A program made the position numbers. Positions 51,001 through 64,000 of a stretch of 64,000 nucleotides of DNA are shown here, piece after piece. Location of the stretch: assembly GCF_963676685.1 (NCBI RefSeq), contig NC_092357.1, positions 61,566,001 to 61,630,000 of the forward strand. The letters are read 5' to 3'. Origin of the DNA: Mytilus edulis. Its lineage: Eukaryota. The first letter of the stretch is position 1, and every line of letters begins with the position of its first letter.

Positions 51001-54000
51001 TCTTGTATCACTCGCCCCTCTTTTGATAAAAATCCAAGTTGAAAAGGTAATAATGTTTTTAAAGATGACTATCTGAACATGGTGAATTTAGTCCGAATTG
51101 CGAATAGTAACTTTTTTTTTACCTATATTAATTAAATCCTTAAATGTGACAACAATACACTAAACTACATAACTGAGATAACTGTCTCGTTTTTTGAAAA
51201 TCCAAGTTAATTTGAAAAAGAAATAAAGGAAATTTAAAATCGACTACCTGAATTCAGTCCGACTGAAAATTCCATTTTTTTTTACGTCAAATTTTGCAGT
51301 AATAAATCAAACTACTAACCAATCTGGCATAATCATGTTGGTTTGAAAAAATACAGAAAAATAAAAGATATAACTATCTTAATTTTATCAAAACTGAAAA
51401 TGTTTGCTCCTTTTTACCTGATAATTAAATTCTTTATTTCACAGCAATCCACCAAACTGCCAAAAAAACTTTTCTGACCAGTCAAGACTAAATTTAAAGG
51501 TCAAGACTAGTCGAGACAAGTTGAAACTGGTCGAGACTGGCCAAGACTGAGTCGAGACTGCGAGACAGGTGGAGACCGGTCGAGATCATTTCAGACTACA
51601 CCAAGATCATAGAGTACTGAATCAGACCTATTAGGTAAAGTTGGAACCAAAGTCGACATAATAAAGCGACATATGTTATTTATAGAAAATTTATATATTT
51701 TTTTAAATCTCGAAAGTTTGGCCTAAATCATTTTAAACATAGTGTGTGCATGGAGTATAACAATGTTATTACAAATATTCAAAATCAAATAAATGGAGCA
51801 ACTGACAAAGTTTTTCTTGAACGTCATGTTCTTTTGATACCTGATAAAGATACAAAACACGAAAAATTTATTCAATTAAAACATAATATTGACAAGATAG
51901 ATGAAAATGTAAAAAAAAATTGGTTAAAATTGTCATTGGTTTTGATCTTAAATATATTTAGATAAAAACACATTTCAAACACAGTTTATAAAACAATTTT
52001 TGTTCATGAACAGAAAAACTATCCGGACGCTCGGCTTCGTGTAGATTTCGTAGCAGCTGGTTAATTTTTTGAAACTTGATTTTTGAGTTTCTGCGGTGAT
52101 TATACATTGAGCATATTAGTTATAAGCAAAGATTGTGTGCTGTGTTTTTATTTTTGCGTCAAATAAAGGAAAACATTGCATAGATACTTTTGCAATTTTT
52201 TTACCACAATCATTTCATGAGGTAGGACATTTTATTTAATATGTTAGATGTTTATTTATAAGAATAATAATATAAGAATACTAAAAGAATATCAAATTAC
52301 CATTCATGTTCCCACAATAATTCGTTGGGAACATGCTACGATAAAATAGATACTACCGATAAGACTTCTTGGTACATCATTGATAGTAAAAAAATTGTCA
52401 GACACAGAAACGTTTTGGGCAAACATATCAATATGGGACTACGAAGTCTTATATATCAAAGGAATAATAACTCTCCAGGCTCAACATAATATGAAATTAA
52501 AAACTAACCTCCAGGTACACAAATGCTTGTTTCGTCACTTTGTTTACTTTCGTAGGAGTTATTTACGTATGTTGATATTCTAAACCGGTTAATAGTTGAG
52601 GGTAAAATATTAGAGCATGGCTTTGAACAGTACAGTGTGTCTGGTTCAACTGCCCAGAAATCGTCATTCTTCCATTTATCAGTACTGGTTTCAGTTATAT
52701 AAATTCTATATTCCGTTATTTTCATTGGTAAATTGGCAGGTTTTGACCATCTAAACTTCAGAGAATCCGCTTCCTTCGTAACTGTAAAGTCACTTGGTGG
52801 GCCTGTAAAAAACAAAAGATAAAACCTACAAATCAGACACAAGGACCAACCTTCGAAAATTTAAATGCATAATTTAAATGTGTTCACGCTTTTATCTTAG
52901 CTAAATATTTTGAACCATTTAATCAAAAGAACACAAAACGAAAAGAGCAGCTCCTTTTAATAAAATTATTTTTTGTAATACATATGAACCAAAAACGCCA
53001 TTAAAATATACCACTCTGTCATTCACAACACAGACGTATTAAAAGGAAAGATAAGGTCAGCTATTAAATAAGGTATGAATCGTCTACAAGGAGTTAACTC
53101 TCCCAAAGAGATCAAATGACACAAAAATGAATAATTAAAGGTGCTTCAGCAATGAACGAAACCCGTACTGCATTGGCAGCTAAAAATTCATCGAAATGGC
53201 AAATGTAGTACAAATCAACAGCGACAACTACCAGCCTAATTTACGTCAAAAAATATGTAACACAGTAACTGACGACAACCGACTTACAGACTTAGGACAG
53301 ACACAGACATGTGGCTGGTTTAAACTTGTTAGAAAGCGCCAACACCCCTAACCTGGTACAGTGGTGTAACAATACAATATCAGAAGAAACTATATACAGT
53401 TGAAAAAGGCTGAACTCATAAGATGAAAACAAGTATAAATACATCTCATAAAAACACAGTGGACGTAAACGTGTACTTATACACCGTCACAGCAATGAGA
53501 CAAAAGAACAGAACTGAGAGTACTTACATTTACTGACAGCTAGTGCAAAGCTTATAACAACTAATAAACAAACATCATGCATCTAAGACTAAAATATCAA
53601 TCAGTACACATCGAACATCAAATGAATTTCGTGTAAAGACGTCATATATAGTCAGAAAAAACATGTACTTATGCAATGTCAAGAAACAGGTATCGACAGA
53701 TGGTAGAGTCGTTAATGTAAAAATGTATATTCAAATAGAGTTTAGTTTGAACTTAATTTTCTGATAACAACTCAATATAAATACCAATAAAAACAATATT
53801 CAAAGATCTGTTTACGTGTTTAGTTGTTAGACTTTAATCATAAGTTTATTTAAACAATCTATAAGATTACACGGATCATTTCTTAATTGATCATGTTAAA
53901 TACAGACTGAATAATCGGCAGTAAATGATGACACCAGCAAGGTTTTCATTTTTTCCCTCACAATTTTTAATGTTAAATATGTCAAATATTTAATTTTCTT

Positions 54001-63000: not shown

Positions 63001-64000
63001 AAATCTTGATAAAATTCAAACTCAATTTTGAAAGAATAAAGCGACAAATGTTATTTATAGAAAGTTTATATATTTTTTTCAATCTCGAAAGTTTGGCCTA
63101 AATCATTTTAAACATAGTGTGTGCGTGGAGTATAACAATGTTATTACAAATATCCAAAATCAAATAAATGGAGCAACTGACAAAGTTTTCTTGAACGTCA
63201 TGTTCTTTTGATACCTGATAACGATACAAAACACGAAAAAATTTATTCAATTAAAACATAATATTGACAAGATAGATGAAAATGTAAAAAAAAAATGGTT
63301 AAAATTGTCATTGGTTTTGATCTTAAATATATTTAGACAAAAACACATTTCAAACACAGTTAATAAGGCAATCTTTGTTCATGAACAGAAAAACTATCCG
63401 GAAGCTCGGGTTCATGTAGATTTCGTAGCAGCTGGTTAATTTTTTGAATCTTGATTTTTGAGTTTCTGCGGTGATTATACATTGGGAATATTAGTTATAA
63501 GCAATGATTGTGTGCCGTGTTTTTATTTTTGCGTCAAATAAGGGAAAACATTGCATAGATACTTTTGCAATTTTTTAACCACAAATTAAGAAGATTTTGC
63601 GAAGAAAATCCATATACTAAACTCGTTTATGTACCAAAAAAAAAAACTATCTGAACAATAGGTTGTTCTTTGTTTTTTCTTTTCCGGCTTTAAATGATGT
63701 TTTCTACTTTGATTAGATAATGAATGATCATCTAACATAATTTTGTTTTTACTTACTAGTAATGCTGTATAAGCAGGTGAAAAAACTGCCAAAGATCAAA
63801 CCCACTACTAAAACCCCTGAAAGCATAACAATTATTAGAAAAGCAGTAGATGAAAACCATTTATAATTTGAGTGTGAATTCACATTACTATAAGACGTGT
63901 CACGGTACTTTTCTATCCCAAATTCATGTATTTGGTTTTTGATAATATATTTGTTATTCTCATCGGATTGTGTCTAATACTAAGTCCGTTTCTGTGTGTT

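What the first reader, a model, noticed from the sequence alone, without database searches (positions are those of the whole stretch)
51661..63584. Domain accordion caught in the act: near-identical 3.07-kb two-exon units adding FN3 pairs
Seen: three complete units plus a partial fourth, with introns about as conserved as exons, all exons open and splice sites intact. The only exon indel is in frame (+3). Inference: very recent unequal crossing-over is changing the domain count, so FN3 number probably varies between alleles. This is a length-diversification mechanism plausible for an immune sensor.
Basis: partly seen in the sequence, partly recalled or inferred. Interest (0 to 1): 0.7.

Follow-up and report, generated by a model that had tools for sequence, protein, structure and literature searches.

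The report
Mussel gene's duplicated FN3 exon pairs
A mussel gene for a membrane-anchored protein has copied a 3.07-kb block of two exons three times in a row, adding three pairs of fibronectin-III domains in frame; it is a clean but ordinary example of how repeat proteins grow, and nothing shows that it is an immune sensor.

Summary
Window 51660-63585 is a head-to-tail array on the minus strand with a 3.07-kb period: three full units plus 551 bp of a fourth. Each unit has two 294-nt, phase 1-1 exons (A and B), and each exon encodes one FN3 domain. All six exons are open with AG/GT intact, and the one exon indel is +3.

- A 2,151-bp TA-flanked inverted-repeat transposon sits between units 2 and 3.
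- Introns are less conserved than exons (96.5-98.1% against 98.6-99.0%).
- Three older A/B exons lie downstream, giving nine alternating FN3 exons.

The sequence is from a Mytilus mussel. The gene reads TM helix, nine A/B FN3, one more FN3, a SEA-like domain, then FN3. Distant relatives have two FN3 where this gene has ten.

Unequal exchange between units is the best mechanism. Unit divergence of 1.9-3.6% equals or exceeds mussel heterozygosity, and a Mytilus edulis protein model preserves the B2-A-B1 order. So the duplication is young but not "in the act". Copy-number variation is untested.

The "immune sensor" reading rests only on a same-strand nSTAND3 NTPase exon 17.7 kb beyond the last FN3 exon. 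Linkage of the two is unproven and unlikely.

The parts
51660..63585 (-). Whole tandem array: 3 periods of about 3.07 kb plus 551 bp, interrupted by one transposon
   Evidence: Self-blastn, the repeat finder, boundary alignments
51660..54730 (-). Unit 1 (3,071 bp), holding exons B1 and A1
54731..57762 (-). Unit 2, main part, holding exons B2 and A2; its last 46 bp lie at 59914-59959 beyond the transposon
57763..59913 (.). 2,151-bp non-autonomous inverted-repeat transposon. It has 215-bp terminal inverted repeats (94.9% identical) whose ends read CAGTG, TA on both flanks (57761-57762 and 59914-59915) where uninterrupted units have a single TA, and an internal 188-bp x 2.1 tandem repeat at 58507-58898
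   Evidence: None of its 4 ORFs has a Pfam match
59960..63034 (-). Unit 3 (3,075 bp), holding exons B3 and A3
63035..63585 (-). Partial unit 4: intron sequence only (segment P), no exon; homology stops sharply at 63585
62593..62886 (-). Exon A3, one FN3 domain, 294 nt, phase 1-1
60809..61102 (-). Exon B3, one FN3 domain, 294 nt, phase 1-1
57361..57657 (-). Exon A2, one FN3 domain, 297 nt (in-frame +ATT, extra Ile; also S to F), phase 1-1
55576..55869 (-). Exon B2, one FN3 domain, 294 nt, phase 1-1
54288..54581 (-). Exon A1, one FN3 domain, 294 nt, phase 1-1
52509..52802 (-). Exon B1, one FN3 domain, 294 nt, phase 1-1
63757..63973 (-). Upstream exon (5' limit not found) encoding a transmembrane helix (Kyte-Doolittle mean 2.78 over 19 residues). 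It ends in a GTAAGT donor in phase 1, about 7 residues before FN3 A3
37204..37497 (-). Older exon A0, 294 nt, phase 1-1; 84% nt and 71% aa identity to A1-A3
31974..32267 (-). Older exon B-1, 294 nt, phase 1-1; 81-83% nt identity to B1-B3
31424..31717 (-). Older exon A-1, 294 nt, phase 1-1; about 80% nt identity to A1-A3
30571..30849 (-). Exon X: a different FN3 domain (Pfam fn3 30.9 bits), phase 1-1
18652..18814 (-). C-terminal half of a SEA-like domain (5' exon limit not found). It contains GSVYVV and ends in a phase-1 donor
   Evidence: fold of relative P0164
18240..18521 (-). Exon Y: a divergent FN3-like domain, phase 1-1, with an intact GTAAGT donor, so at least one more exon must follow
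44135..44897 (-). Relic of the unit's A-to-B intron (68-69% identical to 61376-62114) with no recognisable exon beside it
35856..37662 (-). Old unit around exon A0. 35856-36275 and 36675-37662 align with unit intron and exon A sequence at 67-75% identity
2..532 (-). ORF with an nSTAND3 P-loop NTPase domain, running off the window. Probably a neighbouring gene; not shown to belong to the FN3 gene
   Evidence: Pfam PF20720, E 2.5e-28

Best explanation
The window comes from a Mytilus mussel. On the minus strand lies a gene for a single-pass membrane protein. A transmembrane helix is followed at once by a stalk of nine FN3 domains that strictly alternate between two types (A B A B A B A B A). After the stalk come one different FN3 (X), a SEA-like domain and a further FN3-like domain (Y).

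Every FN3 is one 294-nt exon in phase 1 at both ends. Any whole number of exons can therefore be gained or lost without breaking the frame.

The six domains nearest the membrane come from a 3.07-kb A+B unit that was tandemly duplicated by unequal homologous exchange between misaligned units, or by replication-based tandem duplication. It now stands at three units plus a 551-bp edge copy.

Shown: the array, its boundaries, intact coding capacity, the older A/B copies, and the later transposon insertion.

Inferred: the mechanism; that all copies are spliced in; and that the effect is to lengthen the membrane-proximal stalk. That would move the SEA-like and distal domains further from the membrane by roughly 3.5-4 nm per FN3 (recalled figure).

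The duplication is evolutionarily young but older than typical allelic coalescence in mussels. Whether copy number still varies is open.
For: Array and identities.

Coding capacity:
- 6 of 6 array exons and 5 of 5 further FN3-type exons are open, flanked by AG/GT and phase 1-1.
- The FN3 assignment rests on Pfam scores above the cut-off and on the fold.
- A profile of the A/B exons finds exactly 9 strong matches in the window (E <= 5.6e-48), all on the minus strand. The next best are X and Y at E about 0.1.

Three tiers of age: A against B 57% nt; old against new copies 80-84% nt; within the array 98.0-99.7% nt.

Selection on the duplicated exons:
- Exon differences are fewer than intron differences in 2 of 3 unit pairs (p = 0.017 and 0.0007; the third p = 0.16).
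- I read 5 synonymous and 5 non-synonymous distinct changes.

More than one exchange: the mosaic of shared variants.

Timing of the transposon: it is present at only one of the three equivalent junctions, with a TA duplication, so it inserted after the units formed.

Gene context:
- The TM exon has a phase-1 donor.
- Relatives P0162, P0164 and P0179 share the order TM, FN3, FN3, SEA-like, FN3. P0164 has two FN3 between the TM helix and the SEA-like domain, where the window has ten.

Independent sequence: Mytilus edulis model P0001 has the order B (72/72 identical to B2), A fragment, B (98% to B1). It differs from the window's translation at a few residues, so another haplotype or assembly carries at least these units.

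General precedent: domain repeats commonly grow by duplicating several domains at a time (PMC1553488, abstract read).
Against: - No transcript evidence. Inclusion of all six exons, and the 5' and 3' ends of the gene, are inferred.
- The gene is almost unannotated in public protein sets. The exon B search found 1 protein, the exon Y search found none, and the profile search found only P0001 as a close relative among 511 hits.
- The relatives are about 30% identical gene predictions of unknown source. They may themselves have skipped repeated exons, so '2 versus 10 FN3' is soft.
- Topology is unresolved. A SEA-like domain and N-x-S/T sequons in 10 of 11 FN3 exons suggest an extracellular stalk. 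But relative P0179 has what looks by eye like a signal peptide and a Cys-rich region before the TM helix, which would put the stalk inside the cell.
- The SEA assignment is weak. Pfam SEA is below its cut-off in 1 of 3 relatives (19.3 against 26.4 bits) and absent for the window's exon and for the typed pieces of P0162 and P0179.
- The array is 3 periods plus 551 bp rather than a whole number. The first event therefore needs either a pre-existing flanking repeat or later erosion of the ends, and I could not tell which.
Confidence: 0.72

Rival explanations
1. One reading: an accordion in motion. Unequal crossing-over is still changing the unit number, so alleles in the population differ in FN3 count, and this length variation serves an immune sensor.
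For: - Three units at 96.5-98.1% intron identity are a good substrate for non-allelic exchange.
- The mosaic of variants suggests repeated exchange.
- Mussels carry massive structural and presence-absence variation (PMC7653742, abstract and passages read).
- An nSTAND3 NTPase exon lies on the same strand at 2-532. One candidate acceptor (AG at 491/490) is in phase 1, like every FN3 exon.
- No N-terminal CARD, HEPN or linker exon of that NTPase family was found anywhere in the window.
Against: - No population or read data were available, so copy-number variation is simply untested.
- The one independent sequence (P0001) keeps the B2-A-B1 order rather than showing a difference.
- Unit divergence is at or above allelic divergence, and exons show purifying selection.
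- None of the 120 listed nSTAND3 homologues has FN3, and none of the 3 FN3 relatives scanned has nSTAND3.
- 17.7 kb of repeat-rich sequence separates exon Y from the NTPase exon. None of its 20 longest minus-strand ORFs has a Pfam domain.
- A phase match has a one-in-three chance.
Confidence: 0.25
2. An old array kept alike. The three units are much older than their divergence suggests and are homogenised by gene conversion (concerted evolution), so there is no young duplication.
For: - Introns are homogenised as well as exons.
- Variants form a mosaic in blocks. Unit 3 alone differs at the last 11 variable sites of the unit, while unit 1 is the odd one over most of the rest.
- Inner copies P2 and P3 are the most alike (98.4%). 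The outer copies P1 and P4 share 8 sites against them, a pattern typical of arrays under exchange.
- P0001 shows unit-specific residues shared across two independent sequences.
Against: - The older copies A0, B-1 and A-1 in the same gene have not been homogenised (80-84% nt), so conversion is at least not gene-wide.
- A single transposon at one junction has not spread to or been erased from the others.
- Conversion and unequal exchange are two outcomes of the same process, so this rival overlaps the best explanation.
Confidence: 0.25
3. Assembly artefact. Two haplotypes of a highly heterozygous mussel were strung together, inflating one or two real units into three.
For: - Divergence between units 2 and 3 (1.9%) is close to reported heterozygosity (1.73%).
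- The transposon lies exactly between units 2 and 3 and could be a heterozygous insertion.
Against: - The window has no N.
- The repeat register is kept exactly on both sides of the transposon, with a clean TA duplication. A haplotype mis-join would not be expected to do that.
- Unit 1 is 3.1-3.6% from the others, and the edge copy differs again.
- P0001, which this window does not encode, also holds B, A, B in order.
Confidence: 0.06
4. Splicing cassette array. The units are real, but individual A and B exons are alternatively skipped, so the array gives isoforms of different stalk length rather than one long protein.
For: All exons are symmetric in phase (1-1), so any subset keeps the frame. 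From memory, single-exon FN3 cassettes are alternatively spliced in fibronectin and tenascin-C.
Against: No transcript data. Splice sites of all six exons look equally good. Nothing in the sequence marks regulated choice.
Confidence: 0.15

Closest known systems
Human LPA kringle IV type 2 repeat (intragenic two-exon tandem unit)
   Same: A multi-kb unit (about 5.5 kb) holding two exons is repeated head to tail inside a gene. Each copy adds protein domain sequence in frame, and the introns are repeated with the exons (abstracts of PMC11515395, PMC6314250 and PMC4378929 seen in the search listing).
   Different: In LPA, copy number is documented as highly polymorphic (more than 40 isoforms), and two exons make one kringle. 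Here two exons make two FN3 domains, there are only three units, they differ by 2-3.6%, and polymorphism is untested.
General expansion of protein domain repeats (Bjorklund, Ekman and Elofsson 2006, PMC1553488)
   Same: [quoted passage not shown] The alternating A/B pattern here is the signature of a two-domain unit.
   Different: That work infers events from protein similarity. Here the genomic unit, its edges and its introns are still visible.
Uncharacterised TM / FN3 / SEA-like / FN3 proteins P0162, P0164 and P0179 (unnamed representatives from the profile search)
   Same: Same domain order: a TM helix directly before an FN3, an X-type FN3, an alpha/beta inter-FN3 domain matching the window's 18652-18814 exon (E 5.9e-09), then a Y-type FN3.
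   Different: Only about 30% identical. They have two FN3 before the SEA-like domain instead of ten. P0162 ends in a beta-propeller, and P0179 begins with what looks by eye like a signal peptide and a Cys-rich region.
SEA-domain membrane proteins (MUC1 type)
   Same: The window's exon has G-S followed by a hydrophobic strand (GSVYVV), in the exon that matches the C-terminal half of the relatives' beta-alpha-beta-beta-alpha-beta domain. The MUC1 SEA cleavage site is GSVVV (PMC4456727, passages read). SEA domains sit on membrane-anchored proteins, many autocleave, and the pieces separate under mechanical force (PMC10556640, Significance read).
   Different: Pfam SEA is below its cut-off in one relative and absent in the others and in the window's exon. 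Cleavage is untested.
Mytilus CARD or DZIP3-like-HEPN / nSTAND3 / ankyrin proteins
   Same: The ORF at 2-532 is 59-75% identical over the nSTAND3 P-loop domain to the 120 listed proteins (152 had E <= 0.001), nearly all named from Mytilus species.
   Different: None of those 120 has FN3. Their conserved linker and N-terminal domains are not detectable in the window. It is therefore either a neighbouring or truncated gene, or a new fusion.
Receptor-like death-fold/STAND proteins of oysters (Kaur, Iyer, Burroughs and Aravind 2021, PMC8195603)
   Same: In Crassostrea virginica about 50 proteins combine a Cys-rich extracellular domain, a TM helix and intracellular modules, followed by variable STAND NTPases, ankyrins or beta-propellers (passage read). 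This shows that membrane-anchored STAND architectures exist in bivalves.
   Different: Those proteins carry DED and TRADD-N modules. The paper's text has no occurrence of FN3 or fibronectin (0 hits).

Membership tests
Fibronectin type III domain (Pfam PF00041) | Sequence matches the family profile above the curated cut-off | tested here: met
   A1 25.9 bits and B1 29.4 bits against a cut-off of 25. B-1 32.8, A-1 27.5 and X 30.9 also pass. A0 (21.9) and Y (13.2) fall below.
Fibronectin type III domain (Pfam PF00041) | Seven-strand beta-sandwich fold | tested here: met
   AlphaFold2 model of exon A1: mean pLDDT 88.5, seven strands. Foldseek against PDB: 210 matches at E <= 0.001. The listed top matches are FN3 domains (DCC, neogenin, tenascin, fibronectin), with TMq 0.80-0.83 for the DCC and neogenin chains.
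Intragenic tandem exon-block repeat (LPA KIV-2 kind) | Head-to-tail copies of a multi-exon unit, introns included, at high identity | tested here: met
   Three units plus 551 bp; 96.4-98.1% overall; introns 96.5-98.1%.
Intragenic tandem exon-block repeat (LPA KIV-2 kind) | Unit gain or loss keeps the reading frame | tested here: met
   All six exons are 294 or 297 nt and in phase 1 at both ends.
Intragenic tandem exon-block repeat (LPA KIV-2 kind) | Copy number differs between alleles or individuals | not testable with these tools
The only independent sequence (P0001) is a 214-aa fragment.
SEA domain (Pfam PF01390) | Profile match above the curated cut-off | tested here: not met
   P0164 scores 19.3 bits against a cut-off of 26.4. 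No match for pieces of P0162 and P0179 or for the window ORF 18632-18814.
SEA domain (Pfam PF01390) | Beta-alpha-beta-beta-alpha-beta fold with a G/S site between strands 2 and 3 | tested here: inconclusive
   The model of relative P0164 shows that strand and helix order at residues 260-365, but at block pLDDT 59-79. The fold search returned only FN3 arrays. The window has GSVYVV.
nSTAND3 STAND NTPase proteins of Mytilus | nSTAND3 P-loop domain present | tested here: met
   ORF 2-532(-): PF20720, E 2.5e-28, 99.2 bits against a cut-off of 27.2.
nSTAND3 STAND NTPase proteins of Mytilus | The FN3 array is part of the same protein | not testable with these tools
   No transcripts. Indirect evidence points against it: none of the 120 homologues has PF00041, and none of the 3 FN3 relatives has PF20720. 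A phase-1 acceptor candidate does exist.
Tc1/mariner-type DNA transposon (for the 57763-59913 insertion) | TA target-site duplication and terminal inverted repeats | tested here: met
   TA on both flanks where uninterrupted units have one TA, and 215-bp inverted ends at 94.9%. That these features define the superfamily is recalled, not looked up.
Tc1/mariner-type DNA transposon (for the 57763-59913 insertion) | Encodes a DDE transposase | tested here: not met
   None of the 4 internal ORFs (67-76 aa) has a Pfam match at E <= 0.01. If it belongs to this superfamily, it is a non-autonomous copy.

The most novel reading that the evidence does not exclude
The FN3 gene does not end after exon Y but splices, in phase 1, into the nSTAND3 exon at the left edge of the window. 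That would give a membrane-anchored STAND NTPase whose domain stalk between the membrane helix and the NTPase is set by an exon-pair accordion, and differs in length between mussel haplotypes. It would be a new receptor-like architecture for the bivalve STAND expansion, and a natural length polymorphism in it.
Probability: 0.06. Interest if true: 0.75.

Novelty: new member of a known kind. Interest (0 to 1): 0.3.

Why it matters
This is a tidy genomic snapshot of how multi-domain proteins lengthen. The duplicated unit, its edges, its introns, older decayed copies and a later transposon insertion are all still readable in one gene. The nine-FN3 stalk contrasts with two FN3 at the same position in distant relatives.

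If copy number varies among mussels, it would join LPA KIV-2 as a case where protein length is a heritable polymorphism. It would then offer a simple test of whether stalk length matters for a SEA-type membrane protein.

In itself the mechanism is textbook and the gene's function is unknown.

Tried and rejected
- Exon Y against public proteins (longer class): 13 candidates, none at E <= 0.01.
- Exon B against longer proteins: 1 hit only.
- Profile of the nine A/B exons against 1.84 billion representatives: 511 hits at E <= 0.001. All but P0001 are generic multi-FN3 proteins or roughly 30%-identical relatives.
Their source stays unknown.
- tblastn of the 120 nSTAND3 homologues against the window: matches only at 2-496. 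A profile of the 70 residues before the NTPase domain, built from 71 of the 120 homologues (those whose alignment starts at query residue 13 and that have more than 70 residues upstream), has a best window hit of E 0.56. No N-terminal exon of that family was found.
- Pfam on the 20 longest minus-strand ORFs between 1352 and 17966: only sub-threshold noise. No terminal exon, second TM helix or further FN3 was found after exon Y.
- Pfam on ORFs that looked to me like reverse-transcriptase fragments (2037-2806, 9459-10615, 46944-47216) and on the transposon's ORFs: 0 of 10 matched. I withdraw the 'RT-like' label.
I sent ORFs instead.
- Pfam on pieces of P0162 and P0179 for SEA or TRADD-N: no relevant match.
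- A profile search of solved structures with the inter-FN3 domain was not made.
- Fold search with the whole P0164 model: only FN3 arrays, so it says nothing about the middle domain.
- Search for decayed A or B exons beside the intron relics at 44.1-44.9 kb and 35.9-36.3 kb: none.
- Not used: complex prediction, the protein atlas, Rfam and the bacterial genome collection. None bears on this finding.
- Literature searches: 'Mytilus' + 'fibronectin type III' + 'tandem duplication' + 'exon' gave 2 papers, of which the one listed is a Biomphalaria genome paper and irrelevant. 'Mytilus' + 'SEA domain' + 'fibronectin type III' gave 0 papers.

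
Full report
**What is there**

The 64-kb window has no N, about 32% G+C and a CpG observed/expected ratio of 0.84. It is not human. Every close protein match is to Mytilus mussels.

Between 51660 and 63585 lies a head-to-tail repeat with a period of about 3.07 kb.
- The repeat finder gives start-to-start spacings of 3070, 5230 and 3075.
- Self-blastn aligns unit 1 with unit 2 at 96.8%, unit 2 with unit 3 at 98.1%, and unit 1 with unit 3 at 96.4%, each over more than 3 kb.
- A 575-bp fourth copy is 94.3-94.5% identical to the others.
- Alignments of the edges show homology starting at 51660 and stopping at 63585.
- The array is therefore three periods plus 551 bp.

The 5,230 spacing is due to a 2,151-bp element at 57763-59913.
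- It has 215-bp terminal inverted repeats (94.9% identical) whose ends read CAGTG.
- TA sits on both flanks, where the two uninterrupted junctions have a single TA.
- It carries an internal 188-bp tandem repeat.
- None of its four ORFs has a Pfam match.
- From memory, a TA duplication with such ends is the mark of Tc1/mariner elements, so I read it as a non-autonomous copy.
- It sits in the intron about 100 bp upstream of exon A2, at only one of the three equivalent positions. It therefore arrived after the units existed.

**Exons**

The gene is on the minus strand. Each unit holds two exons, A and B.
- All six are open, start after AG and end before GT.
- All begin with two bases that complete a codon and end with one base that starts the next, so every intron is in phase 1.
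- Five are 294 nt. A2 is 297 nt through an extra ATT, the only exon indel.
- A and B are 47-48% identical in protein.
- Each passes the Pfam fn3 cut-off (25.9 and 29.4 bits against 25).
- Exon A1 folded alone gives a seven-strand sandwich (mean pLDDT 88.5). It superposes on FN3 domains of DCC and neogenin at TM 0.80-0.83.

All searches and folds were done exon by exon.

**How alike, and what that says**

With the units cut at the true array phase:
- u1/u2: exon 98.64% (8 differences in 588), intron 96.89% (77 in 2479), Fisher p = 0.017.
- u1/u3: exon 98.98% (6 in 588), intron 96.45% (88 in 2481), p = 0.0007.
- u2/u3: exon 98.98% (6 in 588), intron 98.11% (47 in 2483), p = 0.16.

My earlier table (reused) began unit 1 60 bp too far left and overstated intron divergence.

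So introns are nearly, but not quite, as conserved as exons. The exon deficit suggests that the copies have been under purifying selection since they formed. From I read five synonymous and five non-synonymous distinct exon changes, plus the +3.

The variable sites form a mosaic.
- Unit 1 is the odd one at 62 sites, unit 3 at 30, unit 2 at 21, and 2 sites have three states.
- The last 11 variable sites of the unit all single out unit 3.
- In the 551-bp segment present four times, the inner copies P2 and P3 are 98.4% alike. The outer copies P1 and P4 share 8 sites against them.

That is what repeated unequal exchange or conversion inside an array produces.

**Older layers**

A profile of the A/B exons finds exactly nine strong matches in the window, all on the minus strand (E <= 5.6e-48). 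They are the six array exons plus A0 (37204-37497), B-1 (31974-32267) and A-1 (31424-31717). Each of the three is 294 nt, phase 1-1, with intact splice sites.

Read 5' to 3', the nine alternate strictly: A3 B3 A2 B2 A1 B1 A0 B-1 A-1.

Nucleotide identity falls in three tiers:
- 98.0-99.7% within the array;
- 80-84% between array and old copies;
- about 57% between A and B.

Pieces of the unit's intron survive at 35856-36275, 36675-37662 and 44135-44897 at 67-75% identity. The 44-kb piece has no exon beside it. The two-domain unit has therefore been duplicated, and at least once lost, before the present array arose.

**The gene**

- Upstream of A3, an ORF at 63757-63973 encodes a strongly hydrophobic 19-23-residue helix (Kyte-Doolittle mean 2.78). 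It ends in a GTAAGT donor in phase 1, about seven residues before the first FN3. It has no in-frame start before the helix, so the 5' end of the gene lies beyond the window.
- Downstream of A-1 comes exon X (30571-30849, fn3 30.9 bits).
- Next is an exon end at 18652-18814.
- Last is exon Y (18240-18521, weak fn3). All are in phase 1.

The profile search of 1.84 billion representatives gave 511 hits at E <= 0.001.
- Only one is close: P0001, a 214-aa 'unnamed protein product [Mytilus edulis]'.
- Three are informative distant relatives, P0162, P0164 and P0179.
- These three share the order TM helix, FN3, X-type FN3, an alpha/beta domain, Y-type FN3, FN3.

On the alpha/beta domain:
- The window's 18652-18814 exon matches its C-terminal half (E 5.9e-09).
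- In the AlphaFold model of P0164 (mean pLDDT 62.9; 59-79 in blocks across this domain) it runs beta-alpha-beta-beta-alpha-beta.
- Pfam SEA matches P0164 below its cut-off (19.3 against 26.4 bits). It does not match the other relatives or the window's exon.
- The window's exon reads GSVYVV, in the part that aligns with the relatives' C-terminal half. MUC1's SEA cleavage site is GSVVV (PMC4456727, passages read).

I call it SEA-like and no more.

In P0164 two FN3 stand between the TM helix and this domain. The window has ten.

**Age and independence**

P0001 is not encoded by this window, since a few residues differ. It consists of a B fragment 72/72 identical to B2, an A fragment, and a full B closest to B1 (98.0%, against 97.0% for B2 and B3). 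That is the window's own B2-A1-B1 order.

So at least these units exist in another haplotype, assembly or sister species. The differences between units 1 and 2 are older than the split between the two sequences.

Intron divergence between units (1.9-3.6%) is at or above the 1.73 +/- 0.24% heterozygosity reported for M. galloprovincialis (PMC7653742, passage read).

The duplication is young on an evolutionary scale, but 'caught in the act' overstates it.

**Mechanism**

The best reading is misaligned homologous exchange between neighbouring A+B units, either between sister chromatids or between homologues. The phase-1 symmetry of the exons makes every product in frame.

The extra 551 bp means one of two things. 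Either the first event used a repeat that already flanked the unit, which is plausible given the older unit copies. Or the ends of a longer array have since been eroded. I could not decide between these.

Domain repeats commonly grow several domains at a time (PMC1553488, abstract read). The closest well-known genomic parallel is the two-exon, 5.5-kb KIV-2 unit of human LPA (abstracts seen in the listing).

The likely effect on the protein is a longer membrane-proximal stalk.

**Is it an immune sensor?**

The only immune-flavoured element is an ORF at 2-532 on the same strand with an nSTAND3 P-loop domain (E 2.5e-28).

Its homologues are nearly all from Mytilus: 152 proteins at E <= 0.001 among 303 candidates, of which the best 120 are listed. 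Many of them combine CARD or DZIP3-like HEPN domains with nSTAND3 and ankyrin repeats.

Against a link with the FN3 gene:
- None of those 120 carries FN3.
- None of the three FN3 relatives carries nSTAND3.
- 17.7 kb of repeat-rich DNA lies between exon Y and this ORF. None of its 20 longest minus-strand ORFs has a Pfam domain.

For a link:
- Exon Y has a good donor and no detectable successor.
- The N-terminal domains and the conserved 70-residue linker of the nSTAND3 family are not found anywhere in the window.
- Homology to the family starts abruptly at residue 13 of the ORF in 85 of 120 alignments.
- An AG at 491/490 would give a phase-1 acceptor.
- Bivalves do have membrane-anchored proteins with STAND modules (PMC8195603, passage read).

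Topology also cuts both ways.
- A SEA-like domain and N-x-S/T sequons in 10 of 11 FN3 exons point to an extracellular stalk.
- P0179 starts with what looks by eye like a signal peptide and a Cys-rich region before its TM helix. That would put the stalk inside the cell.

I put the fusion at about 6% and treat the NTPase as a neighbouring or truncated gene.

**What stayed unchecked**

- Copy number in other individuals.
- Transcripts.
- The gene's two ends.
- A profile search of the SEA-like domain against solved structures.
- The metagenome and viral contig collections (closed).
- Other eukaryotic assemblies. The genome collection holds only bacteria and archaea.
- The supplements of PMC7653742, which list genes subject to presence-absence variation.

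I found no paper on this gene family in two searches.

**Verdict**

The duplication mechanism is supported. The claim of recency is overstated, allelic variation is untested, and the immune-sensor reading is unsupported. This is a new, clean member of a well-known kind.

Noticed in passing
window 2-532 (-): An ORF running off the left edge encodes an nSTAND3 STAND-NTPase P-loop domain (PF20720, E 2.5e-28). It is 59-75% identical to the 120 listed proteins, nearly all Mytilus CARD/HEPN-nSTAND3-ankyrin proteins. None of that family's N-terminal domains or linker is detectable upstream in the window, so it is a truncated copy, a gene with a new N-terminus, or a fusion partner.
   Followed up: partly
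window 57763-59913: A 2,151-bp element with 215-bp terminal inverted repeats, TA on both flanks, an internal 188-bp x 2.1 tandem repeat and no recognisable transposase. It is inserted in the intron between B3 and A2.
   Followed up: yes
window 51499-51585: A 10-bp minisatellite (GGTCGAGACT, 8.8 copies, 71% matches) lies 75 bp outside the left edge of the array. It may be a coincidence or may relate to the breakpoint.
   Followed up: no
window 22180-23740: A second tandem repeat in the long intron between exon X and the SEA-like exon. The period is about 355-360 bp, with roughly four copies at 81-85% identity.
   Followed up: no
window 27748-28131 (-): All three minus-strand reading frames are open across a short-period tandem repeat. 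The ORFs read as repeats of about 16 residues.
   Followed up: no
window 2920-3595, 45031-45343, 50311-50608; weaker at 6498-6734, 20005-20185, 27107-27555: A dispersed repeat of about 300-670 bp: three copies at 91-94% identity and further copies at 70-80% on both strands. It is probably a short mobile element common in this genome.
   Followed up: no
window 9532-10768 vs 46491-47706; ORFs 2037-2806(+), 9459-10615(+), 46944-47216(-): A 1.2-kb inverted pair at 74% identity, with ORFs that looked to me like retroelement fragments. None of the 5 ORFs tested has a Pfam match at E <= 0.01, so the label is not supported.
   Followed up: partly
window 51639-51965(+), 54877-55149(+), 63212-63439(+): The 551-bp edge segment of the unit carries a conserved plus-strand ORF of 75-108 aa in three of its four copies. 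I did not test whether this segment is itself an old mobile element that seeded the first duplication.
   Followed up: no
proteins P0179 and P0259: Two distant relatives begin with a Cys-rich region before the TM helix and FN3 part. In P0179 this follows what looks by eye like a signal peptide. The region has no Pfam match. If real, it bears on which side of the membrane the FN3 stalk lies. The window ends before the corresponding exons would appear.
   Followed up: partly
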